DNA of 64,000 nt from Dehalococcoidia bacterium. GTDB lineage: Bacteria > Chloroflexota > Dehalococcoidia > SHYB01. How positions within the stretch are numbered: position 1 is the stretch's first letter; every line of letters begins with the position of its first letter. The stretch covers positions 592,064 to 656,063 of the forward strand of contig OZ242299.1 in assembly GCA_965207995.1 (NCBI GenBank), written 5' to 3'. A program made the position numbers and the translations under genes. Under the pieces are notes generated by a model. The model was given only the letters and a program-made list of their open reading frames with translations. It was not told the origin of the DNA and searched no databases. This document shows, one piece after another, positions 11,263 through 58,686 of this stretch.

Positions 11263-11263
11263 G

Positions 11264-11828: not shown

Positions 11829-11916
11829 GCTGTCACCTCGCTTTCGATTTCCCTGATCCTTCGCCGACTACATACCTTCTGCCATTCGTCCACCTTCCTC
11901 TATTGGCAAGCCTGAC

Positions 11917-14096: not shown

Positions 14097-14311
14097 GCGA
14101 CCAATACCTCCTCGCGTACGAAGTGCAGCCGGATCAGCTTGGGCCGTCGCATGGTCTCGTCGAAGTAACAATCGACGGCCTCCTTGACGTTGTCGCGCAA
14201 CTCCTCCAGGGAATCTCCCTCCGTGTGGATGCCGTACCCCAGCGCGCTGGCGGTGTATCCGCCGTCCACCTCATCTTCGCTGACCTCAAAGATGATCTCG
14301 GTCTCAGACAT
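14093..14311 (-). CDS. hicB: HicB-family antitoxin (UPF0150 fold, no DNA-binding extension)
   Basis: 72 aa 'IFEVSEDEVDGGYTASALGYGIHTEGDSLEELRDNVKEAVDCYF'; it sits upstream of and overlaps hicA. Confidence 0.65.
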   Translation of the reverse strand: MSETEIIFEVSEDEVDGGYTASALGYGIHTEGDSLEELRDNVKEAVDCYFDETMRRPKLIRLHFVREEVLVA

Positions 14312-14352
14312 TGGCTCCTCCTATCGGAATGGTTTTCTCTTGGGGCGGAACG

Positions 14353-17306: not shown

Positions 17307-17365
17307 TCCGATAATGGCTCTAGCGTATAGGACTTGGAAGAGATGACTTACGCAGGCTTCTTCAA
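17307..17365 (+). repeat. Downstream copy of the direct repeat; contains the genuine cas3 RBS and start codon
   Basis: See the copy at 16823..16878. A 428-bp AT-rich segment lies between the two copies. Confidence 0.7.
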
Positions 17366-21898: not shown

Positions 21899-21925
21899 AG
21901 TGGCCGAACAATAATCAGGAGGTTC

Positions 21926-22930
21926 TTGAACATGACGATTGATTGGAAGCAAATGGACGGTGTTCCACGCCTCCTAATGGAGGCTGAGCTGAGACCAGTA
22001 CAGGGTACGCGGTTCCAGCCCACGGGTTTTCCTGATCTTGGTGCTGCTACGTATGAAGCCGTCGGCAAGGTCGATATGGTATTGGTCGAGTCGGCGCAGT
22101 CCATGGCCAATCGAATGGAAGCCGTTTGCTGGGACGAAGAGAACGAGTCTCCGCCCTCCGTACTCAATGGAATGCCTTACGTCTCAGTGGCCCTATGGGA
22201 CAGTGGCAGCTCCACCAATTCGATCCTGGAAGCTCACAGGCTCAACTCCCCCTACATCATGCGTGATGAGGATTTCGCGGCCAAAATCCGGGATGAGGCA
22301 GGGCTACCAGGTCGAAAAGAGAAGGAAGAGGTCGGAGAGTTTAATCGTGCGGCCCTTGCCAAGGCGGTGTTCAAGTATGACCCAGGCTCCGTGCTGCATG
22401 GGGTCTTCTTGGAAAAGCTGCTCGGACTCGCCCGGCTCCAGCGCTGCCTGTCCGGGTTCGTAGAGGCCTGCAACTCCAATGTTGCGGACAGCGGCGGCGT
22501 CAAGAACGACCGGATCGCTCCCTCGCCAGGGTCTTTGAGGCAGATAGGTTTGGAGGTTAGCGCTGCGGAAGGTTACGGCAACGTTCCATTCCACCGTACA
22601 GAATACACCGCTGAGCTTATCACCGCCTACTTCAACCTGGATTTGGCGCAGATTCGGGCCTATGGGTTGGGCGAGAGTGCAGAGCGGTTCCTGGTCACAT
22701 TAGCGTTGTGGAAGGTGCGTAAGTTCTTGGAAACTGGGTTGCGACTGCGGACGGCTTGCGACCTGGATGTTTGCGGCGGCCTGAATGTCACGCGGCCTCA
22801 AGGGTTCGACGTACCGCTAACATCAGATCTGACGGCCAGTCTCCCAAGGCTCATAGAGGCGTGCGCCTCCGAAGGGTTGTTCGCAGACCCCCCCGTAACG
22901 CAGCTTACGTTCGAGAAGAAGGGCAAGTAG
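21926..22930 (+). CDS. csb1: Csb1 (Cas7 group RAMP) of type I-G
   Basis: 334 aa, glycine-rich RAMP-like; position after csx17. Confidence 0.8.
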   Translation: MNMTIDWKQMDGVPRLLMEAELRPVQGTRFQPTGFPDLGAATYEAVGKVDMVLVESAQSMANRMEAVCWDEENESPPSVLNGMPYVSVALWDSGSSTNSILEAHRLNSPYIMRDEDFAAKIRDEAGLPGRKEKEEVGEFNRAALAKAVFKYDPGSVLHGVFLEKLLGLARLQRCLSGFVEACNSNVADSGGVKNDRIAPSPGSLRQIGLEVSAAEGYGNVPFHRTEYTAELITAYFNLDLAQIRAYGLGESAERFLVTLALWKVRKFLETGLRLRTACDLDVCGGLNVTRPQGFDVPLTSDLTASLPRLIEACASEGLFADPPVTQLTFEKKGK

Positions 22931-22936
22931 TCTGCC

Positions 22937-24412
22937 GTGGTTGCGATCAAATTCACGTTCACGGCCAACCGCTACCATGCCACCCAGTGGGGCAGGCATG
23001 TCAATGAAGGTGTGTTGGAGTGGCCGCCGTCTCCGTGGAGGATTCTACGGGGCATCGTCGCGACTTGGCATCGCACACTGCCCGACATCCCAACTGAACG
23101 TGTCCGTTCCATACTTGGAGCGCTGGTGTCCGAGTATCCAAAGTTCCACTTACCCGCAGCGTCCACAGGCCACACCCGACACTACATGCCTTACAGCGAC
23201 GGGACGCGGAAGAGAACGACACTGGTGTTGGACCCGTTCGTGGCAGTTCAACCCAAGAAGTCCCTGTTCGCAATCTGGCCAAACGTCAACTTGGACTCGC
23301 AGCAATGGAGTGACCTAGAGCGCATTCTTAGCAGCATGCCGTATCTGGGACGCGCCGAGTCATGGGTGACTGCGGAACTCACATCGAATCATCTCGATCC
23401 CAACTCCTATGTTCTGGATAATAGTGCACTTCCGGATAGCGATGTAGAGGTCGTACGGACGCTGGTGCCTAACAACGGCATTGGCCTAGATGAGTTGCAG
23501 GTGGAGACGTCTACCCTCAGGAGTAAAGGGCGCATCGACCCGGAAGGTACACACTGGCGTTCGTACGTACGCAGGCGCGACTGCTTCACGTCTTTCCAAA
23601 CCAAGCGATCACGACGGGCCGCTGGCGGTGAAGATGCGACAGTGATCCGGTTTGCCCTGTCCGGCAAGGTCTTGCCAATGGCCTTCGACACCCTCCGTTG
23701 GGGCGAGTTGGCCCGCAAGTGCGCAATGTCCCAGTACGGCAGAAACAATGATGGGGGAGTATCCCAATTCTTGTCAGGCAAGGACCCCTCTGGAACACCG
23801 CTAAAGGGACATAGACACAGCTTCTACATGCCAACTGATGAAGATGGCGACGGGAGACTGGATCACCTAACGATTTGGACACCGGGCGGGCTCACTGAAG
23901 AAGAGTTTCGAGCCCTCGTATCGATAAGCACTCTCAATCCCGGCCGCAACCTTGAGCCAATTCAGATGGTCTACCAAGGCCACGGCGTCGCCGATGATTT
24001 CGTCGGGGTCTCCCGATTATTCAACAGTTCGAGGGTATGGAGGTCACTAACGCCTTACGTCCTGACCCGGCATGTCAAGTTCCGAGGGCCGCTGGATGAG
24101 AACGGACGAAAGACGATGGCCGATGGCCCCGAGGAACAGATCGCCCGCGAAGTGTCGTTGCGCTGGTCAGGGGGCCTTAGACTGGTAAGTGTGGCGATCC
24201 ATAACCAGCGCGATTCTATCGTGCCGATGAAGGAAGGGAGGTCGAATGGGTTTCGACCCTTTGATTTCTTCACTTACAGACGGGGAGGAGGTTCCAATGG
24301 CGGAGGGGTATTCAACTTCAAGCTAGAGTTCGACTGTCCGGTTCAAGGGCCTTTGGCGCTGGGCTTCGCTTGTCATCAAGGTCTGGGCATTTTCGTTCCT
24401 GAAGGGTCTTAG
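22937..24412 (+). CDS. csb2: Csb2 (Cas5/Cas6-like fusion) of type I-G
   Basis: 491 aa; the 'EWPPSPWR' N-terminal motif is characteristic of the Csb2/Cas5 group; position fits. Confidence 0.8.
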   Translation: MVAIKFTFTANRYHATQWGRHVNEGVLEWPPSPWRILRGIVATWHRTLPDIPTERVRSILGALVSEYPKFHLPAASTGHTRHYMPYSDGTRKRTTLVLDPFVAVQPKKSLFAIWPNVNLDSQQWSDLERILSSMPYLGRAESWVTAELTSNHLDPNSYVLDNSALPDSDVEVVRTLVPNNGIGLDELQVETSTLRSKGRIDPEGTHWRSYVRRRDCFTSFQTKRSRRAAGGEDATVIRFALSGKVLPMAFDTLRWGELARKCAMSQYGRNNDGGVSQFLSGKDPSGTPLKGHRHSFYMPTDEDGDGRLDHLTIWTPGGLTEEEFRALVSISTLNPGRNLEPIQMVYQGHGVADDFVGVSRLFNSSRVWRSLTPYVLTRHVKFRGPLDENGRKTMADGPEEQIAREVSLRWSGGLRLVSVAIHNQRDSIVPMKEGRSNGFRPFDFFTYRRGGGSNGGGVFNFKLEFDCPVQGPLALGFACHQGLGIFVPEGS

Positions 24413-24416
24413 AAGT

Positions 24417-26135
24417 ATGGCGACTACTACGCTCCCCGACTCCCAATTGCCGGACTTGGTCCCTGCCCGGATGCTCAACGAGTATGCCTACTGCCCACGG
24501 CTCGCCTACTTGGAATGGGTGCAGGGCGAGTTCGCCGACAGCGTGGATACTGTTGAAGGCCGCTTCCAGCACCGGAGGGTGGATCGTCCATCGGGAACAC
24601 TCTCTACCCCTCCCACCAAGGATGCGGAGGATAGGTCTTCAGACGATGAGGATGCCGTGCATGAGACCATCCACGCCCGCTCAGTTCTGGTGTCCGACCA
24701 TGCGCTAGGCGCGATTGCACGCATTGACTTGGTAGAAGGGGAGGGCAGCCTTGTCACCCCGGTGGACTACAAGCACGGCAAGGCTCCCGACTTGCCGGAA
24801 GGGGCTTGGGAGCCGGAACGAGTCCAGGTGTGCCTACAGGGACTGCTCCTACGCGCCAACGGCTACACCTGCAATGAAGGAATGCTCTACTTTGTCGAGT
24901 CCCACCACCGAGTACCTGTTCCCTTCGACGATGCCCTGGTTGCCCGGACACTCGAACTGCTGTCGGACATCAGGGATATGGCTAGATCTGGGCAAATCCC
25001 ACCCCCTTTGGTGGACAGTCCCAAGTGTCCCAGATGTTCCCTGGTAGGCATCTGCCTCCCCGACGAGGTGAACTTCATATCAGCCAATGGTCAGACCGTC
25101 AGGGCAGATGATGTCCGCCGTCTGACGCCAGCAAGGGATGACGCAATCCCTGTTTACGTGCATTCCCAGGGGGCAGTTGTAGGTAAGTCGGGCGACCAGT
25201 TGGAAGTGAAGCAAAAGGGACAGGTCTTGCAGAGAGTTCGCTTGATGGAAGTCTCCAATTTGTCCCTCTTCGGCAATGTCCAGGTCACCGCCCAAGCTCT
25301 TCGGGAACTATGCAACCGAAACATACCAGTCTGCCACTTCACCTATGGTGGCTGGTTCAACGGCATCACCACAGGAATGAGCCACAAGAACGTGGAATTG
25401 CGCTCCCGCCAATACTTGGGGGCAATGGCTACCGAAACAGCCTTGACCATATCAAGGCAGATAGTCTTCGGAAAGATAAAGAACTGCCGGACTCTCCTGC
25501 GCCGGAATCATCGGGACCCTCCCGTTGCCATCTTGGCAGAGTTGAACCGCCTAGCCGACAGCGCACGAAACGCGGCTTCCGTGGATACACTTCTGGGGAT
25601 CGAAGGAGCTGCGGCCCGGACCTACTTCTCCGAGTTTGAAGGTATGATCAAGTCTGATTCCTTGGAGTTCGACTTCCATGGACGCAACCGGCGTCCTCCT
25701 AGAGACCCGGTAAACGCTGTTCTCTCGTTTCTCTACGCCATGCTGATCAAGCAAGCCACGGTAACGGCTTTGGCCGTGGGGTTTGACCCTTACCTGGGCT
25801 TCTATCATCAGCCCAAGTACGGAAAGCCAGCGCTATCTTTGGATATGGTGGAGGAGTTCAGGCCCCTGATTGCCGACTCCGTGTGCCTGACCCTCATCAA
25901 CAACGGAGAGTTGGGAGCGGAACACTTCATAGTACGGGGAGACGCTGCGGCACTGACTCAGGCCGGTCGCCGCAAAGTCATCGAAGCTTGGGAGCGACGT
26001 ATGGATACGTTGGTTACACACCCGCTATTCGGGTACTCGGTCAGCTACCGACGCATCCTGGAGATCCAAGCACGGCTGCTCTCGCGGCACTTGCTGGGCG
26101 AGCTGCCTGCGTACCCCGTATTCAGGACGAGGTAG
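24417..26135 (+). CDS. cas4/cas1: Cas4-Cas1 fusion protein
   Basis: N-terminal Cas4 RecB-nuclease motifs with Fe-S cysteines ('YCPRLAYLEW', 'CPRCSLVGIC'); C-terminal Cas1 integrase fold. Confidence 0.85.
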   Translation: MATTTLPDSQLPDLVPARMLNEYAYCPRLAYLEWVQGEFADSVDTVEGRFQHRRVDRPSGTLSTPPTKDAEDRSSDDEDAVHETIHARSVLVSDHALGAIARIDLVEGEGSLVTPVDYKHGKAPDLPEGAWEPERVQVCLQGLLLRANGYTCNEGMLYFVESHHRVPVPFDDALVARTLELLSDIRDMARSGQIPPPLVDSPKCPRCSLVGICLPDEVNFISANGQTVRADDVRRLTPARDDAIPVYVHSQGAVVGKSGDQLEVKQKGQVLQRVRLMEVSNLSLFGNVQVTAQALRELCNRNIPVCHFTYGGWFNGITTGMSHKNVELRSRQYLGAMATETALTISRQIVFGKIKNCRTLLRRNHRDPPVAILAELNRLADSARNAASVDTLLGIEGAAARTYFSEFEGMIKSDSLEFDFHGRNRRPPRDPVNAVLSFLYAMLIKQATVTALAVGFDPYLGFYHQPKYGKPALSLDMVEEFRPLIADSVCLTLINNGELGAEHFIVRGDAAALTQAGRRKVIEAWERRMDTLVTHPLFGYSVSYRRILEIQARLLSRHLLGELPAYPVFRTR

Positions 26136-26620: not shown

Positions 26621-29600
26621 CCTTCCATCGCTGAAAGGCGATGGCCCCATTGAAGCACGAGGGCAACGTCTTCCCTGCTCAGGCCATAGGTACCTTCCAT
26701 CGCTGAAAGGCGATGGCCCCATTGAAGCTAGTAGATCGGCTTGTCTACCCCTACCACGGCCCGGCGGCCTTCCATCGCTGAAAGGCGATGGCCCCATTGA
26801 AGCAGCGTCACAGGAAATGAGCTAGTCCTCCGCCGAGGTACCTTCCATCGCTGAAAGGCGATGGCCCCATTGAAGCGGGCCGGATTCTCCGCCGACGATG
26901 ACCCAAGAGATCGACCTTCCATCGCTGAAAGGCGATGGCCCCATTGAAGCATACCCGTCAGAAGTCAACAGGTCCCGATGCTGCTGCCTTCCATCGCTGA
27001 AAGGCGATGGGCCCCATTGAAGCACTTCCCAGCCCGCCCGCTTCAGCAGCCCTACAAAGCCTTCCATCGCTGAAAGGCGATGGCCCCATTGAAGCTACCA
27101 GGTCGACTACTTCATTCGTCCGGTCCTGAATCCTTCCATCGCTGAAAGGCGATGGCCCCATTGAAGCCAGCCGAATCCGCCCCCGGCGCGCGTCCGGCTC
27201 TTCGGCCTTCCATCGCTGAAAGGCGATGGCCCCATTGAAGCGACTGTGACAGAACCCTGTCGCCCGCGTAGAGATACACCTTCCATCGCTGAAAGGCGAT
27301 GGCCCCATTGAAGCGTGGCTGGCCCATAGCCGCCCGTCCCCAGCTGTAGCGCCTTCCATCGCTGAAAGGCGATGGCCCCATTGAAGCTTGATGGCCGCTT
27401 TCTGGGCGGGCTTGAGATCCACGCCTTCCATCGCTGAAAGGCGATGGCCCCATTGAAGCTCACCCCTGTTTTCAGGCCTCTAGTAAGGGCTTGCCTACCT
27501 TCCATCGCTGAAAGGCGATGGCCCCATTGAAGCTACAGCACCGGCTTTTTCGCGGTGTTTACCGATCAGCCTTCCATCGCTGAAAGGCGATGGCCCCATT
27601 GAAGCTCGTCCACCCGCCACACACCCCCATCAAGATAAACCCCCTTCCATCGCTGAAAGGCGATGGCCCCATTGAAGCGGTCTGAGTGAGCGTGTCGATG
27701 GTGCCAAGGCTGCGGCCTTCCATCGCTGAAAGGCGATGGCCCCATTGAAGCTCGGTAGCGGCGACCGTCTCCCCGCCGTCAATTGCCCGCCTTCCATCGC
27801 TGAAAGGCGATGGCCCCATTGAAGCACCGGAGGGGGTAGGAATGAACATCCTCCCTGGCTGCCTTCCATCGCTGAAAGGCGATGGCCCCATTGAAGCCGT
27901 ATCGGACTTCGTCCTGGGCAAGCCTGGCCTCAACCTTCCATCGCTGAAAGGCGATGGCCCCATTGAAGCTTAATGTCGTCGACCGAGAGGGTGGCGCGCC
28001 CTGTGCCTTCCATCGCTGAAAGGCGATGGCCCCATTGAAGCTGGCAATCGCCACAGGCTCCCGCGCCGCCGGTTCCAACCTTCCATCGCTGAAAGGCGAT
28101 GGCCCCATTGAAGCCATCATCTCGCGGCGCTGTTCGCTGTGGTGGGCCAGCCTTCCATCGCTGAAAGGCGATGGCCCCATTGAAGCCTGGCTGATGGTTC
28201 CGTCTGCGGACCTTCCCGACGCCTTCCATCGCTGAAAGGCGATGGCCCCATTGAAGCGTGAACGTGCTTATCATGCCATGCTGTCGGGACGTGCCTTCCA
28301 TCGCTGAAAGGCGATGGCCCCATTGAAGCGCGGTGGCCTCCTGCCTCTCTAGACAGTCTGCCCAAACCTTCCATCGCTGAAAGGCGATGGCCCCATTGAA
28401 GCCCATTTCAGTTGTCCTCCTTGTGTTTTTGGGTTTGGGTCCTTCCATCGCTGAAAGGCGATGGCCCCATTGAAGCGCCGGGACCTTCACCAACTCGTCG
28501 ATCCGCCAAGTGCCTTCCATCGCTGAAAGGCGATGGCCCCATTGAAGCCTGGAAGAGATCAAGACGCTCAAGACGCTGGAGCTGAACCTTCCATCGCTGA
28601 AAGGCGATGGCCCCATTGAAGCTAGTGCGGGGCGCCACGCGCCTGGACCTCCACGCCCCAGCCTTCCATCGCTGAAAGGCGATGGCCCCATTGAAGCTAG
28701 TGCGGGGCGCCACGCGCCTGGACCTCCACGCCCCAGCCTTCCATCGCTGAAAGGCGATGGCCCCATTGAAGCCGCTTCAGCTCCGTCACGTCCATCGTGG
28801 GGTTGCCCACCTTCCATCGCTGAAAGGCGATGGCCCCATTGAAGCGGCTCTTGACCACGCCGACACCGACGACGAGGGTGCGGCCTTCCATCGCTGAAAG
28901 GCGATGGCCCCATTGAAGCCCGGCATTCCGCGCGCCCTGGTGCATGCGTCTGTACTTCCTTCCATCGCTGAAAGGCGATGGCCCCATTGAAGCTGTTCTC
29001 ATGATCATCGCGCACCGAGCTGGCCCAGGGGGACCTTCCATCGCTGAAAGGCGATGGCCCCATTGAAGCTGCCGAAGCCCGCGACGCGCCTGTGCTGATC
29101 CTCGACGACCTTCCATCGCTGAAAGGCGATGGCCCCATTGAAGCGGTGCACTAGCTCAACCATCGGCAGCGTCGTCATGGTGCCTTCCATCGCTGAAAGG
29201 CGATGGCCCCATTGAAGCGTGGCCCACTGCGAAGTCAACAACGAGTCCTTCCTCCGGCCTTCCATCGCTGAAAGGCGATGGCCCCATTGAAGCCCTATAC
29301 ATGGTCTCGTACACCGCCTCGGCTGTGTACCCCTTCCATCGCTGAAAGGCGATGGCCCCATTGAAGCAGCGTCGTCCCCGCCCCCACGGTGAGCTGGCCC
29401 GTGGACCTTCCATCGCTGAAAGGCGATGGCCCCATTGAAGCAAGGCGTTCAGCAGAGGGCCAAGGGCCGATAGCAACCCTTCCATCGCTGAAAGGCGATG
29501 GCCCCATTGAAGCACGGAGGGCGACCTCGCGTCGTGCTACGTCCCGGCCCACCCTTCCATCGCTGAAAGGCGATGGCCCCATTGAAGCGACGACACCAGC

Positions 29601-32241: not shown

Positions 32242-33147
32242 ATGGTTGTAGAGGTCACTCACATTGGTTTCAGCGATGAGTCTCACTGGAACGAGAGTAG
32301 ATATCGTAGTCTCGCTCTCATTACTCTCGATAAGGCCAACCTCGCCGAGCTCGTAGCCGCGTCACGGCAACTCCTGGCTCAATCGAGCCTCAGAGAGTTT
32401 TCGTGGAAGGAATTACGTAGTGACAACCGCCGTACTGCAGCAGAACGACTTTGCTCCTTTGCAGTCGACTATGCTTGCAAGGGGAAGCTCCGAATTGACA
32501 TCCTCATCTGGGACATTCAAGACTCCCGTCACAAAATCCAAGGCAGGGATGATACTGCAAACCTTGCGCGCATGTATTACCGCCTCATTTCGCATGTGAT
32601 AAGGAACCGCTGGCCCAGCGGATCCATCTGGCAACTGTTCGTGGATGAACGTAATGACATCGATTGGCAGGAACTAGAAAGTTATCTGCCGTCGCGCCCC
32701 AAAAGAAACAGGGACCAGGGACAGCTACTTCAGAGGGCCAGCCAGTACTACAAACCTCGGGTTGAACAGGCAGTGTCGGCAAACGCACCGCTAGTTCAAA
32801 TCGCAGACTTGTTCGCTGGCCTTGCCGCCTTTTCGTGGAACGAGCATGCGGCATACGAGAGATGGAAAGGCCAGTCTGACATGTTCTCGCTGATGTTCAG
32901 CGATGCAAAGCCTTCGGAGCTATCGAAGAGTCAGACCCACAAGGCCCGCACACTCCTGCATTTCACAACTTATTGCAAGCCAAGGATCGACATTAGCCAC
33001 AAGGCCGGAGAGGGCCTTCGAACTCCTGTCCCAAAGAGCCCGATTAACTTCTGGCGCTACGTACCACAGCACGAGAAAGACAAGGCGCCGCTACGGCATC
33101 AATCGTCTTCCGATAATCGTCTTCGTGGATACCGTCGAATGGGATAA
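32242..33147 (+). CDS. DUF3800 domain protein
   Basis: N-terminal 'FSDES' and C-terminal 'LVQIADLFAG' are DUF3800 hallmarks. Local GC is clearly lower than the flanks. Confidence 0.7.
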   Translation: MVVEVTHIGFSDESHWNESRYRSLALITLDKANLAELVAASRQLLAQSSLREFSWKELRSDNRRTAAERLCSFAVDYACKGKLRIDILIWDIQDSRHKIQGRDDTANLARMYYRLISHVIRNRWPSGSIWQLFVDERNDIDWQELESYLPSRPKRNRDQGQLLQRASQYYKPRVEQAVSANAPLVQIADLFAGLAAFSWNEHAAYERWKGQSDMFSLMFSDAKPSELSKSQTHKARTLLHFTTYCKPRIDISHKAGEGLRTPVPKSPINFWRYVPQHEKDKAPLRHQSSSDNRLRGYRRMG

Positions 33148-33475
33148 CTGGTACCTCCACGTGCCTTGGCGGAGAATATCGCCCCCCCACCACGACACCC
33201 GCCCCTTCCCCATCCCCACCCACGCGCAGCCCTAGCCTCGTTCTCCCCCCGGAGACCTTGCAAATGCGGCCGCGGGCTGCGTTGACGTTGGCACACCCCT
33301 CCCGGCCCCCCGCCCTCACCCCTGCCTCTCCCAGCGGAAGAGGGGGCAGGGCGCCCCACCCCACCCGTCTTTCAGCTTGCCCACGCCTCCTCTCGCTGTT
33401 GCCGCCGCTTCCGATACCACGTAACATCTGCCCATATCCGGCGAGGCCGCCCTCCGCGGCCCGAAAGGAAGCGTC

Positions 33476-34021
33476 ATGGCCAAGATCGAGCTCCTCGACC
33501 CCACCGGCGTCATGCCCGCGGTCAAGAAGACCGAGACCCCCACCCTCGACACCATCGACGGCAAGCGCATCGGCTTCCGCGTCGACTGGGCCAACTTCGA
33601 CATCTTCTGCAACGAGGTCGACGCCCACCTCAAGGAGAACTACGAGCCCCTCGAGGTCAGGCACTACTACCCCACCAGCCGCAGCCAGACCGACGCCGCC
33701 GGCGCGAAGGAGTTGTCCGACTTCGTCGACAGCGTCGACGCCGTCGCCGTCGGCCTCGCGGCCTGAGGCTCCTGCACCGCGTGGAGTGTCCACGACACGA
33801 TTAGCGTCAACGAGCAGGGCAAGCCGACCGTCCTCATGGTCACCTCCGAGTTCGTCAAGCTGGCCGAGAGCCTGCTGCGCGCCCGCAACCGCAGCGACAT
33901 CCCCATGGTCGTCCTGCCCCATCCCTTCGAGCCGCTGCCCAAGGACGACATCAAGGCGCTGGCCAAGGAGAAGTACGAGGCCGTCGCCAGGGCGCTGACC
34001 GACGGCGAGACCAGCGCCTAG
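33476..34021 (+). CDS. UGSC-family selenoprotein candidate, read through the in-frame TGA at 33764-33766 (motif GLAA-U-GSC-TAW)
   Basis: Track ORFs 33476..33766 and 33836..34021 are in the same frame and separated only by one TGA. AAAGGAAG RBS. TGA sits in a U-x-x-C redox-type motif. A 6-bp perfect stem (CGTGGA gtg TCCACG) begins 14 nt downstream. Confidence 0.6.
33780..33794 (+). promoter_or_regulatory. Putative bacterial SECIS-like hairpin downstream of the in-frame UGA
   Basis: CGUGGA-GUG-UCCACG hairpin with a G/U apical loop 14 nt 3' of the UGA, matching the spacing of bacterial SECIS elements. Confidence 0.4.
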
Positions 34022-34030
34022 GAGGCCCCG

Positions 34031-35089
34031 ATGTCCGACCCCACCCTGACGGCGGAGGTCGTCGCCCTCGACGACGACTCCATCGAGGCCGTCTATGAGC
34101 GCGCCGCCGACCTCGGCTGGATCGACGGCCTCCCGATCATCCCGCCGACGCCCGACCGCGTGAAGCGGATGATGGCCGGCGTCAACCGCGGCCCACAGGA
34201 CAACGTCGCCAACATCCCGCCCAACAACGCCCCGGCGACCATCGAGAAGATCGCGATCAACGCCGTCATGGCGGGCTGCAAGCCGGAGTACATGCCGGTC
34301 GTGGTCAGCGCCCTTGAGGCCTGCGCCGACCCCCAGTTCAACCTTTACGCGCTCAACACCACCACCAGCAGCGTCGGCCAGTTGGTCATCGTCAACGGCC
34401 CCATCCGCAACGAGCTGGAGATCAACTGCGGCTACAGCGTCTTCGGCGGGGCCAACGCCCGCGCCAACACCACCATCGGGCGTGCCGTGCGCCTGGTCAT
34501 GCGGAACGTCGGCGGTTCCATCGAGGGCATCGTCAGCAAGAGCACCATGGGCAACCCCCTGCGCATCACCGGCTGCGTCGGCGAGTGGGAGGAGCAGAGC
34601 CCCTGGCCGGCGCTCAGCGTCCAGCGGGGCCTCGCGGAAGGCCAGGACGCCGTCACCGTCTTCGGCGCGCAGGGCACCCTCAACCTCCAGGACGTCGCGT
34701 GCAAGACGGCGGCGGGCCTGCTCACCGTCCTCGCGCACTCCATCGACTGCTCGGCCACCAACATGGTGCTCGGCAAGCTGGAGTCGGCGCAGGTGCTACT
34801 CGCGCTCTGCCCCGACTTCGCCTACATCGTCGCCCGCGACGGCTGGTCGGTCGAGGACGCGCGCCAGTTCATCTTCGAGCAGACCAGCGCCGTCCCCCTT
34901 GACCGCTGGCCCGAAGAGCTGCACGGCCCCATGGAGGAGCGCGGGCGCATCGTCAACGGCGTCGTGCCCATGGCGGCCGACCCCGACCAGTTCCTCATCA
35001 TCGTCAACGGCGGACTCGGCGGACTCCACGCCATCGCGTGCCACTCCTTCGCGGAGACCGATGCCGTGACCCGCCCCATCGTGCGCTAG
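34031..35089 (+). CDS. Hypothetical protein, probably co-transcribed with the selenoprotein gene
   Basis: 352-aa ORF beginning 10 nt after the upstream stop; no recognised family. Confidence 0.55.
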   Translation: MSDPTLTAEVVALDDDSIEAVYERAADLGWIDGLPIIPPTPDRVKRMMAGVNRGPQDNVANIPPNNAPATIEKIAINAVMAGCKPEYMPVVVSALEACADPQFNLYALNTTTSSVGQLVIVNGPIRNELEINCGYSVFGGANARANTTIGRAVRLVMRNVGGSIEGIVSKSTMGNPLRITGCVGEWEEQSPWPALSVQRGLAEGQDAVTVFGAQGTLNLQDVACKTAAGLLTVLAHSIDCSATNMVLGKLESAQVLLALCPDFAYIVARDGWSVEDARQFIFEQTSAVPLDRWPEELHGPMEERGRIVNGVVPMAADPDQFLIIVNGGLGGLHAIACHSFAETDAVTRPIVR

Positions 35090-35129
35090 CACCCGCTCCC
35101 AAGACGAATCCAAAGCCTAGGAGGCAATC

Positions 35130-35924
35130 ATGGCGGACTCGCTGCTCGGCCTGGAAGATAAGGTCTGCCTCGTCACCGGCGCGGGGCAGGGCATGGGCGA
35201 GGGGATCGCCACCGTGCTCGCCGAGGCCGGCTGCCACGCGGCAATCGTCGACCTGAACACGGAGCGAGCCGAGCGCGTCGCTGACAAGATCCGCGGCATG
35301 GGCCGCCGGGCCATCGCCCTCACCGCCGACGCCCGGTCGGAGGACGCGATACAGCAGATGGTGGAAGACACCGTGTCCGAGCTCGGCGGGCTCGATATCG
35401 GCGTCTGCAACATCGGCGGTTTGAGCGAGGAGCGCGCCGCGCTGGTAGTCGAGTCGTCGCTCGCCTTCTGGGACTACGTGGTCGATCAGAACCTCCGCGC
35501 GACCTACCTCTGCTCCCGCGAGATGGCCAAGTCGATGATCGGGCGCGAGGTAAAGGGCACCATCATCAACATCGCCTCGATCAGCGGGCTGCGGGCGTCG
35601 GCGCGGATCTCGCCCTACGGCGCGTCGAAGGCCGGAATCATGCACTACACCCAGACGCTGGCCATTGAGCTCGCCCAGTACGGCATCCGCGTCAACTGCG
35701 TCTCCCCGGCCTCGATCAACACGCCGGAGGCCCTCGGCCACTCCGGACGGACGGAGATGGACGCCTCCGTCATCCCCATCGGGCGCGCGGGGCAGCCGGA
35801 GGACATCGGCTACCTCGTCGCCGTCCTCGCCTCCGACCGCGCCGGCTACGTCACCGGCCAGACCATCCACGCCGACGGCGGCCTCAGCTGCACCTCGGCC
35901 CGCCCCCAGATGGCGGGCGGCTAG
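35130..35924 (+). CDS. SDR-family NAD(P)-dependent oxidoreductase
   Basis: 'VCLVTGAGQGMGEGIA' Rossmann motif; catalytic 'YGASKAG'. Confidence 0.85.
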   Translation: MADSLLGLEDKVCLVTGAGQGMGEGIATVLAEAGCHAAIVDLNTERAERVADKIRGMGRRAIALTADARSEDAIQQMVEDTVSELGGLDIGVCNIGGLSEERAALVVESSLAFWDYVVDQNLRATYLCSREMAKSMIGREVKGTIINIASISGLRASARISPYGASKAGIMHYTQTLAIELAQYGIRVNCVSPASINTPEALGHSGRTEMDASVIPIGRAGQPEDIGYLVAVLASDRAGYVTGQTIHADGGLSCTSARPQMAGG

Positions 35925-35930
35925 CGCGGC

Positions 35931-36941
35931 ATGCTCGAACGCATCGGGGTCAACCTCACCCTGCGGGAGGACCGCCCGGTCTCCGAGATCGTCGAGTTCG
36001 TCCAGCGGCTCGAAGGCGCGGGCTACGACTCGGTGTGGGTCGGGGAGTCGTGGGGCCGCGAGCTCTTCATCATGCTCACCGCGCTGGCGTGCAACACGTC
36101 GCGCATCCAGATCGCGGCCGGCATCGCCAACGTCTTCAGCCGCACCCCCGGGCTCGTGGCGCAGTGCGCCGCCACCCTCGACGACGTCTCGAACCAGCGG
36201 GCCATCCTCGGCCTGGGCACGAGCGGGGCCAAGGTCATCCGAGACTGGCACGGCGTCCCCTACGACCGTCCAATGCAGCGGACGCGGGAGTACATCGAGA
36301 TCGTCCGCCTGGCGCTCAGCGGGCAGCGGGTCAACTACGACGGCGATATCTACCAGCTGCGCGACTTCAGGATCGCCACCAAGCCCCCGCGCCCCGACAC
36401 CCCCATCTTCGTCGCCTCGCTGGGCCCCAAGAACGTCCGGCTCACCGGCGAGCTCGCCGACGGCTGGGCCCCGCTCTACGTCTCGCCCAACTACCTGCCC
36501 CAGTGGCGGACCTGGCTCGCGGAGGGCGCGCAACAGTCCGGCCGCGACCCAGGCAACATCGACCTGCGCCCCTACGTCGTCGCCTGCGTGGACGACGACA
36601 CCCAGGTGGCGCGCAAGCTCATCAAGGGCCACCTCGCCTTCTACATCGGCGGCATGGGCCGTTACTACCGCGACCTCATCGCGAAGTACGGCTACGTCGA
36701 GGAGACCGACCGCATCGCCGACCTCTGGTCGAAGTTCGAGCGGGAGGAGGCCGCCGGCGTCGTCACCGACGCCATGGTCGACGAGTTCTGCGCCGGGGGC
36801 ACCGCGGAGCAGGCCCGCCAAAAGCTCGCCGACCTCGCGGAGAAGGGCCTGGACTCGCCCGTCCTCTACGTCCCCAACCGCTCGCCGATGGAGACGATGC
36901 TGCGCACCGTCGACGAGCTGGCGCCGGCGAAGTTCCGCTAG
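35931..36941 (+). CDS. LLM-class (luciferase-like) F420/flavin-dependent oxidoreductase
   Basis: TIM-barrel LLM signature 'GYDSVWVGESWGRE...ILGLGTSG'. Confidence 0.85.
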   Translation: MLERIGVNLTLREDRPVSEIVEFVQRLEGAGYDSVWVGESWGRELFIMLTALACNTSRIQIAAGIANVFSRTPGLVAQCAATLDDVSNQRAILGLGTSGAKVIRDWHGVPYDRPMQRTREYIEIVRLALSGQRVNYDGDIYQLRDFRIATKPPRPDTPIFVASLGPKNVRLTGELADGWAPLYVSPNYLPQWRTWLAEGAQQSGRDPGNIDLRPYVVACVDDDTQVARKLIKGHLAFYIGGMGRYYRDLIAKYGYVEETDRIADLWSKFEREEAAGVVTDAMVDEFCAGGTAEQARQKLADLAEKGLDSPVLYVPNRSPMETMLRTVDELAPAKFR

Positions 36942-36950
36942 CCCGGCGCC

Positions 36951-38243
36951 TTGTACCTCCCGTCGTTCCGCCTGACACCACCGGAATCGATCCTGGGGCG
37001 GCGCGTCTTCTACGGATGGTGGATCGTCGCCGCCGCCTTCGGCCTGACCTCGATGATCTCGGGGTTCTACTTCCTCGGCTATTCCGCCTTCGTGAATCCC
37101 CTCTCCGAGACGTTCGACGTGGGCGTCGACCGCATCGGGCTCGTCTTCGGCATCTCAAGCTCCGTCGCCGCCGTTTTCGGCCTGGCGGCGGCGCGGCTGA
37201 GTCCCCGTCTGATGACCTTCGCCGGCGTGCTCATGATGGGCGGCGGCTTCCTGCTGGTGGGACGGGCCGAGTCGTTCCTGCTCTACGCCTTCATCCAGAC
37301 GGTACTCGTCGCCACCGGCGGCTTCATGGTGGTGATGTACGGCTCGGGGTCGATCATCAACAACTGGTTCGCCAGACGCCGAGGGCTCGCCTTCGCCATC
37401 GGCATGACCGGAGTCAGCTTCGGCGCCGTCCTGGTCAACCTGACGCAGTTCCTCATCGACAAGATCGGATGGCAAGACGCGACGCTGATCCTTGGCGGGA
37501 TCGTGCTCGCCGTGGGCCTCCCGCTGGCCGCGATCATGCGGGCGCGCCCCGAGGACGAAGGGCTGCTGCCCGACGGGGACCCGCCGCGCCCCGGCGTCAC
37601 CGCGCCCGCGGCGCGGGCCGCACCTACCTCGCCCGCCTATGCCGGTTTCACCCTGCGGGAGGCCCTGTCCACGCGGGTCTTCTGGGTGATGAGCGCCGCC
37701 TTCCTGGCGCGGAACTTCGTCACCACCGGCTTCGGCTTCTGCTTCATCCCCGCCATCGAAAACAAGGGCTTCACCGCCGCCGCCGGCGCATCGGTGCTGA
37801 TCGTCTTCGCCGTGATGACCGTGCCCAGCCGGCTGACCTCGGGCTACCTTGGCGACCTCTGGCGGCGCAACGTCGTCGCGGGCGTGATGATGGCGGGCAT
37901 CGCGGCGTCGATGCTGATCATGGTCTGGGCGGAGACGCTGGCCGTCATCATCATCTTCCTCTTCATCTACGGCTCCTTCTGGGGCGGGATCGGCGGCGCC
38001 ATGTCGATGGCCCTCCGCGGCGAGTTCTTCGGACGCCGGAACTTCGCCGCCATCGCCAGCGTCACCACGCTCGTCATCGGGCTCGGCGAGATCGCGGGCC
38101 CGACCGTCGCCGGACGCATCTTCGAGGAGACCGGCTCCTTCCAACTGGCCTTCGTCGCCTTCGCCATCGCCGCCCTCCTCTCCGCCATCGCCCTCCTCTC
38201 CCTCCGCCCCCCGCGGCGCCAACGAAATCGGCCAACAGACTAA
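36951..38243 (+). CDS. MFS transporter (paralog of 45607..46857)
   Basis: 12 predicted TM helices; the N-terminal 'RRVFYGWWIVAAAFG' parallels 'GRIFYGWWIAGAAAV' of the paralog. Start codon uncertain (TTG at 36951). Confidence 0.75.
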   Translation: MYLPSFRLTPPESILGRRVFYGWWIVAAAFGLTSMISGFYFLGYSAFVNPLSETFDVGVDRIGLVFGISSSVAAVFGLAAARLSPRLMTFAGVLMMGGGFLLVGRAESFLLYAFIQTVLVATGGFMVVMYGSGSIINNWFARRRGLAFAIGMTGVSFGAVLVNLTQFLIDKIGWQDATLILGGIVLAVGLPLAAIMRARPEDEGLLPDGDPPRPGVTAPAARAAPTSPAYAGFTLREALSTRVFWVMSAAFLARNFVTTGFGFCFIPAIENKGFTAAAGASVLIVFAVMTVPSRLTSGYLGDLWRRNVVAGVMMAGIAASMLIMVWAETLAVIIIFLFIYGSFWGGIGGAMSMALRGEFFGRRNFAAIASVTTLVIGLGEIAGPTVAGRIFEETGSFQLAFVAFAIAALLSAIALLSLRPPRRQRNRPTD

Positions 38244-38298
38244 CGCTGCTTGACGATACTTCTATGCTCTATTAATAGAATCAAGAGGTTGGGCTGCG

Positions 38299-38799
38299 AT
38301 GAACTTCCAGATCGGCGGCAAGCAATATGAGGTGGCGCGGGAGGACGTGCTGAACGCCACGCGCGGCCGGATGCCCGAGACCGCCGACGGGCGGCACAAG
38401 TACTTCGTCAAGCTCCACGGGCGCCACTACCCCATCAAGCAGGTCGTCCAACTGACCACCGGTCTGAAGCCGCTTGAATTCACCTCGCAATACGCGCTTG
38501 GAATCCTCACCGCGCTGGACTTCGACATCTCCGATCGTTCCTCTCTCGGTCCGGCGTCTCCCGGCGACTCCAATGGCGGACAAGCACTGCGGCTTCTCGT
38601 CGTATTCGAGACCGATGAGGACGGCTGGGAAGTAGCAAGCTGCCCGACCCTGCCGGGCTGTCACAGCCAGGGCCGGACGAGAAGCGAAGCGCTAGCGAAC
38701 ATCCAGGAGGCCATCAGAGGCTACCTCGCGAGCATGCGCGAGCATGGCCTGCCCACTCCTCCCTCTTCAGAATTTGAAGTCTTGGACATGACCGCGTAG
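38299..38799 (+). CDS. Protein with an N-terminal unknown domain fused to a C-terminal HicB-like (UPF0150) fold
   Basis: C-terminal 'LRLLVVFETDEDGWEVASCPTLPGCHSQGRTRSEALANIQEAIRGYL' matches the HicB-fold consensus. The N-terminal ~100 aa are unrecognised. There is no DNA-binding tail. Confidence 0.6.
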   Translation: MNFQIGGKQYEVAREDVLNATRGRMPETADGRHKYFVKLHGRHYPIKQVVQLTTGLKPLEFTSQYALGILTALDFDISDRSSLGPASPGDSNGGQALRLLVVFETDEDGWEVASCPTLPGCHSQGRTRSEALANIQEAIRGYLASMREHGLPTPPSSEFEVLDMTA

Positions 38800-39020
38800 T
38801 GGCCCGCTTGCCTGTGCTATCGGGCGACGAGTTCGTCCGGACAGTCGCCAAGATCGGATTCGCCCTCGACCGCACCGAGGGCAGCCACATGATCTTGCTA
38901 GGGCGGACGGGAAGGAGGCTCTCCGTCCCACGGCACAAGGAGCTAGGCCGCGGCTTGCTGCGGGCGCTGATCCGAGACGCCGGCCTGACGCGGGAAGAGT
39001 TCCTCGACCTGCTCCGTTAG
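38799..39020 (+). CDS. hicA: HicA-family toxin (GTG start overlapping the upstream stop)
   Basis: 73 aa 'EFVRTVAKIGFALDRTEGSHMILLGRTGRRLSVPRHKELGRGLLRALIRDAGLTREEF' matches the YcfA/HicA signature. Confidence 0.65.
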   Translation: MARLPVLSGDEFVRTVAKIGFALDRTEGSHMILLGRTGRRLSVPRHKELGRGLLRALIRDAGLTREEFLDLLR

Positions 39021-39091
39021 ACCCTCCTCTCCCTCCGCCCCCCGCGGCGGCGTTGACCCCGCCCCGCACCGGCCGCTAGGGTGGCCGCGTT

Positions 39092-40198
39092 ATGCGCGTC
39101 GAGCGGCTCGCCGTCACCACCATCGACCTGCCCATCGACCTCGACCTGGGCGCGAGGTACGGCACGCTGTCCACCCTGCGCTACGTCGTCGTCGGCCTGA
39201 CCGGCACGGGCGGCGAGCGCGGCGTCGGCTTCACCTTCGCCATGCGGCCCGGCGGCGGCGACGCCGTCGCCCGCACCGTCGCGGCGGTCGAGGGCGCCGT
39301 CGTGGGGCTCGACCCCGCCGACACCGACGCGAACTGGGACGCCCTGCGCGCCGAGGTCGAGCGCGTTACGTCGGCGGAAGGAGGCGCGCCGGACGATTCC
39401 GAGGGGACCGCGGCAGCGTCCATGTCGGCGCTCGACGTCGCTCTCTGGGACCTGCTCGGCAAGGCCGAGGGCGCGCCCGTGCACCGCCTCCTCGGCGCGC
39501 AGCGGGAGACCGTCCCCACCTACGCCAGCTACGACATGTGGGAGTCCGTCCCCGACCGCGACGCCGCCCGCGCCGCCAAGGCGTTCGTCGACGGGGGCTT
39601 CGACGCCGTCAAGGTCCGCACCGGCGGCTCCAGAGACCCCGACGCGGAGGCCCGCCGCGTCGCCATCGTGCGCGAGGCCATCGGCCCCGACGTGCAGCTC
39701 ATGTACGACGCCCTGCAGTACTACACCGAGGACGAGGCCGTCGCCATCGCCCGCGCCCTCGAGCTCTACGACCTGACCTGGGTCGAAGACCTGCTGCCGG
39801 AGCGGAACGTCGAGGGCTACGCCCGCGTCCGCGACGCCGTCGGCGTGCCCATCACCACCGGCGAGAGCACGCGCTTCCCCGAGGGGCTGCGGCGGCTCGT
39901 CGAGGCCGGCGCCGTCGACATCCTCATGATCGACGGCAAGGAGGCGGGCGGCATCACGCCGTGGATGCGAGTGGCGCGGGAGGCGGGCGGCCTGCCCATC
40001 GTCAGCCACATCATGCCCGAGATCAGCGCCCCGGTCATCGCCGCGCTCCCCAACGGGATGATTCTCGAATGGTTCCCGTGGAGCTTCGGCCTTTTCGAGA
40101 CGCCCCCGGCCGCCGAGCGCGGCCGCTACCGCCTCCCCGCCGAGCCGGGCTTCGGCCTGCGCTACCGCCCCGACCTCCTCGCCCGCCTGTTCGGCTAG
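39092..40198 (+). CDS. Mandelate racemase/muconate lactonizing enzyme (enolase superfamily) protein
   Basis: Capping plus barrel domains with metal ligands in the expected spacing ('KVRTG', 'LMYDALQ', 'EDLLP'). Confidence 0.8.
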   Translation: MRVERLAVTTIDLPIDLDLGARYGTLSTLRYVVVGLTGTGGERGVGFTFAMRPGGGDAVARTVAAVEGAVVGLDPADTDANWDALRAEVERVTSAEGGAPDDSEGTAAASMSALDVALWDLLGKAEGAPVHRLLGAQRETVPTYASYDMWESVPDRDAARAAKAFVDGGFDAVKVRTGGSRDPDAEARRVAIVREAIGPDVQLMYDALQYYTEDEAVAIARALELYDLTWVEDLLPERNVEGYARVRDAVGVPITTGESTRFPEGLRRLVEAGAVDILMIDGKEAGGITPWMRVAREAGGLPIVSHIMPEISAPVIAALPNGMILEWFPWSFGLFETPPAAERGRYRLPAEPGFGLRYRPDLLARLFG

Positions 40199-58611: not shown

Positions 58612-58686
58612 CTACGCCCCGAAACCTGCATCTCCAGAATAGGGGCGGCCTCGAAGCAGGGTCAAGCCGCTGAGCCGGCCGCGCGG

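What the first reader, a model, noticed from the sequence alone, without database searches (positions are those of the whole stretch)
33476..35089. Apparent UGSC-family selenoprotein: in-frame TGA in a U-G-S-C motif with a SECIS-like hairpin
Track ORFs 33476..33766 and 33836..34021 share one frame and are separated by only a TGA codon, in ~70% GC DNA where long same-frame ORF pairs are otherwise unlikely to arise by chance. Read through, the product is 181 aa with the TGA in 'GLAA-U-GSC-TAW', a selenocysteine redox motif of the kind that gives the UGSC (seleno)protein family its name. Fourteen nucleotides downstream of the TGA there is a perfect hairpin, CGUGGA-GUG-UCCACG, with G/U in its apical loop. 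That spacing and shape fit bacterial SECIS elements. A 352-aa uncharacterised gene follows 10 nt later and is likely a functional partner. Standard gene callers will split or truncate this locus.
Basis: partly seen in the sequence, partly recalled or inferred. Interest (0 to 1): 0.75.

Follow-up and report, generated by a model that had tools for sequence, protein, structure and literature searches.

The report
UGSC selenoprotein gene plus partner
A small redox-protein gene in a Dehalococcoidia genome almost certainly reads its internal TGA as selenocysteine; the family (UGSC) is already known, but the gene is almost always next to, or fused with, a large uncharacterised enzyme family, which gives a testable idea of its function.

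Summary
Window 33476..34021 is one reading frame with a single TGA (33764-33766) in GLAA-U-GSC-TAW. Read through, it matches Pfam PF24696 (UGSC) end to end.

All 55 related loci examined carry TGA at this codon, followed by a conserved C-terminal half. Cys-containing homologues also exist.

The hairpin CGUGGA-GUG-UCCACG (33780-33794) meets all four published bacterial SECIS constraints. Its synonymous sites are nearly frozen across phyla, while neighbouring codons for equally conserved residues vary freely. One relative shows a compensatory U-A to C-G change in the stem.

The 352-aa downstream gene follows UGSC in 47 of 49 loci and is fused to it in many proteins. It belongs to a family of more than 6,000 proteins with no Pfam model and no close solved fold.

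A predicted structure of a Cys homologue has five beta-alpha units and draws only flavodoxin/Rossmann-type fold matches, not thioredoxin. Profile comparisons place the Sec on the Sec of the PrdB/GrdB reductase selenoproteins.

UGSC has been a published selenoprotein family since 2007-2008, so this is a new member of a known kind. Sec machinery could not be checked in this genome.

The parts
33476..34021 (+). UGSC-family selenoprotein gene, 181 codons including one Sec codon, stop TAG
   Evidence: One frame with a single TGA. PF24696 match 1-171/172 at 114 bits. The N-terminus MAKIELLDPTG is conserved in L001-L007.
33764..33766 (+). In-frame TGA read as selenocysteine (U97) in the U-G-S-C motif
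   Evidence: TGA at the homologous codon in 49/49 genome loci and in L051-L056. It aligns to Cys in Cys-form homologues.
33780..33794 (+). SECIS hairpin: stem 33780-33785 / 33789-33794, apical loop GUG 33786-33788
   Evidence: It meets the four bSECIS constraints of PMC13188914: 3-nt loop, 6-bp stem, G then U at the start of the loop, 19 nt from UGA, and -7.8 kcal/mol. Synonymous sites are frozen. One compensatory U-A to C-G change and two G-C to G-U changes occur in relatives.
33767..34018 (+). C-terminal half of the protein (84 aa), which standard gene callers lose or truncate
   Evidence: Conserved in all relatives (T123, F126, L129 at 90% or more, P148 invariant). 237 representative proteins match it at E<=1e-3, including full-length Cys forms and fusions.
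34020..34025 (+). AGGAGG ribosome-binding site of the partner gene, overlapping the UGSC stop codon
   Evidence: Read directly from the sequence. Its function is inferred.
34031..35089 (+). Partner gene, 352 aa, from an uncharacterised family (probably 'Unknown_1' of Zhang & Gladyshev 2008)
35130..38243 (+). Three tightly spaced downstream genes: SDR (35130..35924), luciferase-like monooxygenase (35931..36941) and MFS transporter (36951..38243). Probably one operon, but specific to this clade.
   Evidence: Pfam hits. Gaps are 40, 6 and 9 nt. The same order occurs only in the close relatives L001-L006 and L056; other clades have different neighbours.

Best explanation
This is a genuine selenoprotein gene of the known UGSC family, in a Dehalococcoidia (Chloroflexota) genome.

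Recoding. The UGA at 33764-33766 is recoded to selenocysteine by a minimal bacterial SECIS hairpin, CGUGGA-GUG-UCCACG, that starts 13 nt downstream inside the coding sequence.

The protein. The product is a 181-aa protein with the redox pair U97-x-x-C100. A predicted structure of a Cys-form homologue has five beta-alpha units and matches only flavodoxin/Rossmann-type folds. It places the motif between strand 3 and the first turn of helix 3.

The partner. The protein does not act alone. It is the small subunit of a two-component enzyme whose large subunit is the 352-aa product of the next gene. In other lineages the two are a single polypeptide.

Inferred mechanism. The Sec-bearing domain is a remote homologue of the Sec domain of the PrdB/GrdB 'selenoprotein B' reductases, with the Sec in the same position. 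By analogy, the selenolate attacks a substrate held by the partner subunit. Cys100 then resolves the adduct into a selenenylsulfide, which a cellular dithiol system re-reduces.

Status of each step:
- Shown: family membership, conservation of the TGA, RNA-level constraint on the hairpin, the gene linkage and the fusions.
- Inferred: actual Sec insertion in this organism, physical complex formation, the reductase chemistry and the substrate.

The confidence given (0.85) is for the selenoprotein call and the functional link to the partner. The PrdB-like chemistry alone I put at about 0.3.
For: Family: PF24696 full length, E 1e-32; all 22 read-through relatives also hit it.

Sec:
- TGA in 49/49 loci from Chloroflexota, Actinomycetota, SAR324, Rokubacteria and one MAG labelled Bordetella, followed by G[S/A]CTAWSVHD and a conserved C-terminal half.
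- Five of six partner homologues, chosen without regard to UGSC, also have a TGA-split UGSC gene directly upstream.
- Cys forms exist.

SECIS:
- All four published constraints are met.
- Ala+5 is GCG in 46/46 distinct sequences and Ser+7 is AGT in 43/46, while Gly+1 and Thr+4 use three or four codons each.
- Cys forms vary in the residues that Sec forms keep invariant, so the invariance is an RNA constraint.
- An Ala to Ser change (GCG to TCG) keeps the stem, and L054 has a compensatory U-A to C-G change.

Sec use in the lineage: the source genomes of L015 and L020 are listed with 49 and 46 selenoproteins (PMC13326102).

Partner: adjacency in 47/49 loci. Fusions include P0254, whose residues 195-525 are 36% identical to the window's partner at E 9e-63.

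PrdB/GrdB link:
- 23 of 48 Cys-form family members hit TIGR01917 (best E 2.6e-5). 16 hit GrdF, 12 hit TIGR01918, 6 hit GrdH and 3 hit PrdB. No unrelated family recurs in more than 2 members.
- hhalign of the family against GOS PrdB/GrdB sequences gives 84.6% probability, E 6.8e-6. The first Cys of CGSC falls on the Sec, and the G-x-P-T-V strand is in register.
- The Prd mechanism is taken from PMC11229817.
Against: - No selA, selB, selD or tRNA-Sec was seen. The window has none, and the genome outside it could not be searched.
- The distant loci were probably found through the peptide pattern CTAWSVHD, which overlaps the SECIS, so '49/49 TGA' is biased toward Sec forms.
- Covariation is thin, one compensatory pair, because the hairpin is almost invariant. 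L011 and L012 carry a G.G mismatch.
- The PrdB/GrdB homology is remote. The Sec-form alignment gives only 22.5% hhalign probability. Only 3 of 22 Sec forms hit TIGR01917.
- The partner shows no similarity to the pyruvoyl subunits PrdA/GrdE. It has no invariant Cys or Ser.
- One partner homologue (L050) has no UGSC gene in the 4 kb upstream or in the little contig that remains downstream.
- The structural model is of a 32%-identical homologue, not of the window's protein.
Confidence: 0.85

Rival explanations
1. The TGA is a true stop. The locus is either a decayed Cys-form gene (a pseudogene) or two separate small genes, and the downstream frame is open by chance in GC-rich DNA.
For: Gene callers treat it this way. 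An ATG exists at 33836. TGA is used as a normal stop elsewhere in the window. No Sec machinery has been demonstrated.
Against: The same TGA occurs in 55 independent assemblies across at least four phyla, with the downstream 84 aa under protein-level conservation. GC3 is 0.95 downstream of the TGA. 13 of 50 sequences lack any in-frame ATG in the 39 codons after the TGA. The C-terminal half completes the Pfam domain. A conserved SECIS is present.
Confidence: 0.03
2. UGA is reassigned genome-wide to a standard amino acid (Gly or Trp), as in some uncultured bacterial lineages, so the residue at position 97 is not Sec.
For: Core genes in the window rarely stop with TGA. Among ORFs with GC3 of at least 0.8 the stops are TAG 23, TGA 7 and TAA 4.
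Against: No in-frame TGA is needed in any other gene. The SDR and the luciferase-like monooxygenase match their Pfam models nearly end to end (1-236/236 and 20-313/314) as ordinary ORFs. The only other in-frame TGA with high GC3 on both flanks (45807, minus strand) looks like the antisense frame of a real gene. TGA ends well-supported genes in the window (HsdR, HsdS, Cas3) and ends UGSC genes in relatives. The site aligns with a redox Cys and carries a SECIS.
Confidence: 0.01
3. Sec insertion is real, but UGSC is a free-standing, general thiol/selenol oxidoreductase with a thioredoxin-like fold, as the literature suggested. On this view the neighbouring 352-aa gene is only a frequent neighbour or a client protein, not a catalytic partner.
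For: PMC2398784 describes UGSC as 'likely' having a Trx-like fold. UxxC motifs are typical of redox proteins. One partner homologue has no UGSC nearby. Other neighbours vary widely between clades.
Confidence: 0.1

Closest known systems
UGSC-containing protein / UGSC family (Pfam PF24696; NCBIfam NF041046 'UGSC family (seleno)protein'); described in PMC1976440 (2007) and PMC2398784 (2008)
   Same: Full-length domain match. U-G-S-C motif at the same position. Both Sec and Cys forms exist. The SECIS lies immediately downstream of the UGA. A fusion with a second conserved domain ('Unknown_1') was already reported. The function is unknown, and the 2026 review PMC13188914 still lists it so.
   Different: This clade (GLA[A/N]-U-G-S/A-C-TAWSVHD) scores 75-90 bits against NF041046, below its 125-bit equivalog cutoff, so the NCBI model would not name it. 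Whether 'Unknown_1' is this 352-aa family could not be verified, because the published figure is held only as an image.
Selenoprotein B of the D-proline, glycine, sarcosine and betaine reductases (PrdB, GrdB, GrdF, GrdH; TIGR01917, TIGR01918, TIGR04483)
   Same: A U-x-x-C motif follows a hydrophobic beta-strand and precedes a helix, with a G-x-P-T-V strand 20 residues after the Sec. Profile-profile alignment puts Sec on Sec. The weak HMM hits are recurrent and specific. Like PrdB, UGSC works as a small Sec subunit paired with a larger subunit encoded next to it (PMC11229817).
   Different: Scores are far below the family cutoffs (15 bits against 602). UGSC is shorter, 181 aa against about 240 (PrdB) or about 430 (GrdB). 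The partner is unrelated to PrdA/GrdE, and there is no sign of a pyruvoyl-forming Cys. The hosts are largely SAR202-type Chloroflexota and Acidimicrobiia MAGs rather than amino-acid-fermenting clostridia. No grdA, prdC or prdH-like genes are nearby.
CGGC domain (Pfam PF08821), a putative redox domain with a Cys-Gly-Gly-Cys motif
   Same: 7 of 22 UGSC relatives give weak hits (best E 0.0086). The motif shape is similar, and relative L054 has U-G-G-C.
   Different: All hits are below threshold, and there is no evidence of a shared partner or function.
Thioredoxin-fold UxxC/CxxU selenoproteins (Trx-like, Prx-like, SelW-like)
   Same: The redox motif has Sec and Cys two residues apart at the start of a helix.
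   Different: The predicted fold is five beta-alpha units with flavodoxin/Rossmann-type matches, not a thioredoxin fold.

Membership tests
UGSC family (Pfam PF24696) | Domain match above the Pfam gathering score over the whole model | tested here: met
   114 bits against a cutoff of 25, E 1.1e-32, residues 5-175 on profile 1-171/172.
UGSC family (Pfam PF24696) | [U/C]-G-S-C motif at the conserved position, with Sec/Cys pairs among homologues | tested here: met
   The window has U-G-S-C. Cys forms have C-G-S-C at the aligned column, with C104, G105 and C107 each conserved in at least 90% of 48 representatives. A pairwise alignment with P0126 puts C on U.
NCBIfam NF041046 UGSC_fam (equivalog) | Score at or above the curated 125-bit cutoff | tested here: not met
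   89.9 bits. Six other Sec-form relatives tested score 75-90 bits, while GDCGSCTSW-type Cys forms score 131-148. The window's protein is therefore in a sister clade outside the equivalog.
Bacterial selenoprotein gene (bSECIS model, PMC13188914 Fig. 2) | Apical loop of 3-9 nt, upper stem of 4-16 bp, G in the first two loop positions, 16-37 nt between UGA and the loop, MFE <= -7.5 kcal/mol | tested here: met
   The loop is GUG (3 nt), the stem is 6 bp, the spacing is 19 nt and the energy is -7.8 kcal/mol. The RNAalifold consensus energy is -7.55.
Bacterial selenoprotein gene | TGA and the downstream coding region conserved in homologues from other organisms | tested here: met
   49/49 loci plus 6 further loci. 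The C-terminal half is conserved.
Bacterial selenoprotein gene | Host encodes SelA, SelB, SelD and tRNA-Sec | not testable with these tools
   None is in the 64-kb window or in the flanks of the loci. Indirect support: the source genomes of L015 and L020 are listed with 49 and 46 selenoproteins.
PrdB/GrdB selenoprotein B family (TIGR01917, TIGR01918, TIGR04483) | Score above the family cutoff | tested here: not met
   15.1 bits against 602.2. Only remote homology: 23 of 48 relatives hit at E<1, best 2.6e-5, and hhalign gives 84.6%.
PrdB/GrdB selenoprotein B family | Paired with a pyruvoyl proprotein subunit (PrdA/GrdE) | tested here: not met
   The partner and 39 of its homologues match no Pfam family consistently even at E<=5. 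The partner has no NCBIfam hit and no invariant Cys or Ser.
Thioredoxin-fold oxidoreductases | Thioredoxin fold | tested here: not met

The most novel reading that the evidence does not exclude
Probability: 0.3. Interest if true: 0.7.

Novelty: new member of a known kind. Interest (0 to 1): 0.4.

Why it matters
UGSC-containing proteins are among the most abundant selenoproteins in aquatic metagenomes (255 Sec forms in GOS; PMC2398784), yet they still have no assigned function (PMC13188914).

This locus adds no new kind of element. It does show three useful things:

1. A whole clade of Sec forms falls below NCBI's naming threshold and is split or truncated in public protein sets. Selenoproteome counts for Dehalococcoidia-type genomes are therefore underestimates.
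2. The family is tied, by adjacency across phyla and by repeated fusion, to a family of more than 6,000 proteins that has no Pfam model and no solved relative.
3. The Sec domain looks like a cut-down PrdB/GrdB rather than a thioredoxin. This turns 'unknown redox protein' into a specific hypothesis that can be tested by co-expression.

Tried and rejected
- Single-sequence folding of 33755-33835 is not better than shuffles (z +0.65), so it was not used as evidence.
- Rfam found no SECIS or other family near the site.
- The word-indexed protein search with the read-through sequence returned only two truncated hits.
The C-terminal half and a Cys homologue were used instead.
- PDB sequence searches gave nothing significant for the partner protein (one marginal hit, E 0.011), its profile, or the two UGSC profiles.
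- The two adjacent minus-strand ORFs of 467 and 658 aa, which have SelA/SelB-like sizes, turned out to be HsdS and HsdM.
- The AIRS-domain gene near UGSC in L052 looks like PurM by eye, not SelD.
- The published 'Unknown_1' alignment is held only as an image, and the UGSC section of the GOS sequence file was cut off.
- Promoter and terminator scans of 33100-39100 found nothing.
- A scan of the window for other in-frame TGA sites with coding-like GC3 on both sides found only this site, plus antisense artefacts.
Full report
**1. The observation**

Window 33476..34021 (+) is one reading frame broken only by TGA at 33764-33766. The read-through product is 181 aa, with the TGA in ...DAVAVGLAA-U-GSC-TAWSVHD.

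Small corrections are needed. The gap from the TGA to the stem is 13 nt, not 14, and 19 nt to the loop. The next gene starts 9 nt, not 10, after the TAG, and an AGGAGG overlaps that stop. Local GC is 0.60-0.69.

**2. Is it more than chance?**

On its own the hairpin is weak evidence. The 81-nt region folds no better than shuffles (z +0.65). A perfect hairpin of at least 6 bp with SECIS geometry occurs in 3.0% of shuffles and after 3.4% of all UGA triplets on the + strand of the window.

The comparative evidence is what counts. A scan of one genome per species returned 49 loci from Dehalococcoidia/SAR202, Acidimicrobiia and other Actinomycetota, SAR324, Rokubacteria and one MAG labelled Bordetella. 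All 49 have TGA at the homologous codon, followed by G[S/A]CTAWSVHD and a conserved C-terminal half.

There is a bias to note. The distant loci were probably retrieved through the peptide pattern CTAWSVHD, which overlaps the hairpin, so '49/49' over-represents Sec forms.

An independent sample avoids that bias. Five of them have a TGA-split UGSC gene directly upstream.

In this genome real genes have GC3 of about 0.9. The two flanks of this TGA score 1.0 and 0.95, and the only other in-frame TGA in the window that comes near this (45807, minus strand) reads as the antisense frame of a real gene.

**3. What the gene is**

With U replaced by C, the protein matches Pfam PF24696 'UGSC family' over the whole model (114 bits against a cutoff of 25). 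It matches NCBIfam NF041046 'UGSC family (seleno)protein' at 89.9 bits, below that model's 125-bit cutoff. Six other Sec-form relatives tested also score 75-90 bits, whereas GDCGSCTSW-type Cys forms pass. The window's gene is therefore in a sister clade of the NCBI equivalog but inside the Pfam family.

An exhaustive search with the C-terminal half found 237 representative proteins at E<=1e-3. They include full-length Cys forms with C-G-S-C at the aligned position. One of them, P0126, is 32% identical over 171 aa and reads GLAACGSCTAWS. This is the Sec/Cys pair criterion that the field uses (PMC13188914).

**4. The SECIS**

The published bacterial model requires a 3-9 nt apical loop, a 4-16 bp upper stem, a G in the first two loop positions, 16-37 nt between UGA and the loop, and an MFE of -7.5 kcal/mol or lower (PMC13188914). 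The element here has a GUG loop, 6 bp, 19 nt of spacing and -7.8 kcal/mol. All constraints are met.

RNAalifold on 46 distinct sequences returns this hairpin as the only conserved structure.

The strongest signal is at synonymous sites. Third-position entropy is 0-0.41 bit for codons +5 to +10 (GCG TGG AGT GTC CAC GAC). It is 1.25-1.63 bit for Val-5, Gly+1, Ser+2 and Thr+4, three of them invariant residues and the fourth nearly so. AGT for Ser in 43 of 46 sequences stands out, since real genes in this genome have GC3 near 0.9.

Cys-form homologues vary freely in these residues (TSWTVHD, SRWVLHD, TMWTVEE...). The invariance of TAWSVHD in Sec forms is therefore an RNA constraint rather than a protein one.

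Among 36 distinct 36-mers from 56 sequences the stem changes as follows:
- An Ala to Ser replacement (GCG to TCG) keeps the stem.
- Two changes are G-C to G-U.
- L054 (U-G-G-C, ARCIRD) has a compensatory U-A to C-G change plus one U.U mismatch.
- L011 and L012 have one G.G mismatch.

**5. Sec machinery**

No tRNA-Sec or sel gene lies in the window or in any locus flank. The ORFs with SelA/SelB-like sizes are HsdS and HsdM.

There is indirect support. BSepDB lists 'Dehalococcoidia bacterium UBA1141' (source of L015) with 49 selenoproteins and 'Dehalococcoidia bacterium 10f4566d-...' (source of L020) with 46, among the richest bacteria known (PMC13326102).

A genome-wide reassignment of UGA is unlikely, because TGA terminates well-supported genes here and in relatives.

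**6. The partner**

The 352-aa gene (34031..35089) has a homologue downstream of UGSC, on the same strand, in 47 of 49 loci. It is immediately adjacent in most of them. The two exceptions are L028 and L035, where 1 kb or less of contig remains after UGSC.

In L022 the two genes form one ORF. Among representative proteins there are many fusions of about 530-565 aa with a Cys-form UGSC domain followed by the partner domain (P0168, P0181, P0184, P0212, P0225, P0226, P0244, P0254). P0254 residues 195-525 are 36% identical to the window's partner, E 9e-63. A 'UGSC/Unknown_1' fusion was reported in 2008 (PMC2398784). It is probably the same domain, but the published figure is held only as an image.

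The family has more than 6384 members at E<=1e-3, all unnamed and none with a Pfam domain. Forty diverse members give no consistent Pfam hit even at E<=5.

**7. How UGSC probably works**

Scanning 48 Cys-form members against NCBIfam gives a specific pattern. 23 hit GrdB (TIGR01917, best E 2.6e-5), 16 hit GrdF, 12 hit TIGR01918, 6 hit GrdH and 3 hit PrdB. No unrelated family recurs in more than two members. The window's own protein hits TIGR01917 at E 0.008, with residues 79-164 on profile positions 327-410.

I built an alignment of GOS PrdB/GrdB selenoproteins from the 2008 supplement. hhalign against the UGSC family gives 84.6% probability and E 6.8e-6. The first Cys of CGSC falls on the Sec of U-P-x-C, and the G-x-P-T-V strand, 20 residues after the Sec, is in register. 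The Sec-only alignment gives the same register at 22.5%.

In D-proline reductase the Sec of PrdB attacks the substrate carbon held on the partner subunit PrdA (PMC11229817). By analogy I propose that U97 attacks a substrate bound by the 352-aa subunit, that C100 resolves the adduct to a selenenylsulfide, and that a dithiol system re-reduces it. This step is inference. The partner is unrelated to PrdA/GrdE, and no substrate is indicated.

Neighbouring genes differ by clade: SDR, luciferase-like monooxygenase and MFS here; 2-hydroxyacid dehydrogenase and GFO/IDH/MocA oxidoreductase in L051 and L055; an aminotransferase, an acyl-CoA synthetase or CoA-transferases elsewhere.

**8. Rivals**

- Pseudogene or two genes: excluded by conservation across phyla, by the conserved C-terminal half, and by 13 of 50 sequences lacking any in-frame ATG in the 39 codons after the TGA.
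- Reassigned UGA: excluded as described in section 5.
- Free-standing thioredoxin-like redox protein with an incidental neighbour: argued against by the fold, the fusions and the PrdB/GrdB signal. It is not fully excluded, because one partner homologue (L050) has no UGSC in the sequence available around it.

**9. Novelty and verdict**

The UGSC-containing protein has been a published selenoprotein family since 2007-2008 (PMC1976440, PMC2398784). It has Pfam and NCBIfam models, and the 2026 review still lists it as being of unknown function. This locus is a new member of a known kind.

In the closest relative's contig the gene was called as 95 aa + 61 aa, and the same split is seen in L051-L055.

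The work here adds three points beyond the literature I could read: the near-obligate link to a large unmodelled family, the non-thioredoxin fold, and the PrdB/GrdB-type placement of the Sec. All three are computational and need the experiments listed under next steps.

Noticed in passing
window 26621-29588: CRISPR array of about 40 repeats with unit CCTTCCATCGCTGAAAGGCGATGGCCCCATTGAAGC and a period of about 72-75 nt. The 402-aa ORF at 27930..29138 (-) and its 'HNF-1A_C' Pfam hit are artefacts of the array.
   Followed up: partly
window 17334-26135: A cas operon next to the array: Cas3 (helicase + HD), a 718-aa unannotated protein, a GSU0053-type Cas protein, a 491-aa unannotated protein, and a Cas4-Cas1 fusion. 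The layout looks like type I-U. No cas2 was looked for.
   Followed up: partly
window 8245-16329 (-): Type I restriction-modification system: HsdR (1005 aa), HsdS (467 aa) and HsdM (658 aa). Together with the CRISPR-Cas locus it forms a defence island of lower GC (0.57-0.62, against 0.66-0.71 elsewhere).
   Followed up: partly
whole window, ORFs with GC3 >= 0.8: Stop-codon use is dominated by TAG (23 TAG, 7 TGA, 4 TAA). As far as I recall, GC-rich bacteria usually favour TGA. Most of the TGA stops lie in the defence island or on doubtful ORFs. Whether avoidance of TGA relates to heavy Sec use in this lineage is unknown.
   Followed up: partly
L022 (JACPQD010000025.1) and L054 (JACPQD010000029.1): One Chloroflexi MAG (NC_groundwater_644) carries two paralogous systems. 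One has UGSC (U-G-A-C) fused in frame to the partner. The other is a separate U-G-G-C gene with a variant SECIS (CGCGGU-GUA-UCCGCG) upstream of its own partner.
   Followed up: partly
L009, L020, L021, L023, L024, L038: In these SAR202-type loci about 0.5-1.9 kb separates the end of UGSC from the partner gene, so another gene or insertion may sit between them. The intervening sequence was not examined.
   Followed up: no
SAR202-type loci (L014-L041): Recurrent neighbours are a flavin-reductase-like gene immediately upstream on the same strand (19 loci), a luciferase-like monooxygenase about 2.5 kb downstream (23 loci), and two subunits that look like a TPP-dependent decarboxylase upstream on the opposite strand (17-20 loci). 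The names come from reading representative sequences by eye; no family scan was run on them. This may be lineage synteny rather than a functional link.
   Followed up: no
window 32242-33147 (+) and 33148-33475: A DUF3800 gene (weak hit, 21.9 bits against a cutoff of 21) precedes a 330-nt non-coding stretch rich in C/G runs upstream of the UGSC start. No promoter-like or terminator-like site was detected there.
   Followed up: no
window 58544-58621 (-): tRNA-Pro (anticodon TGG), the only tRNA in the window.
   Followed up: yes
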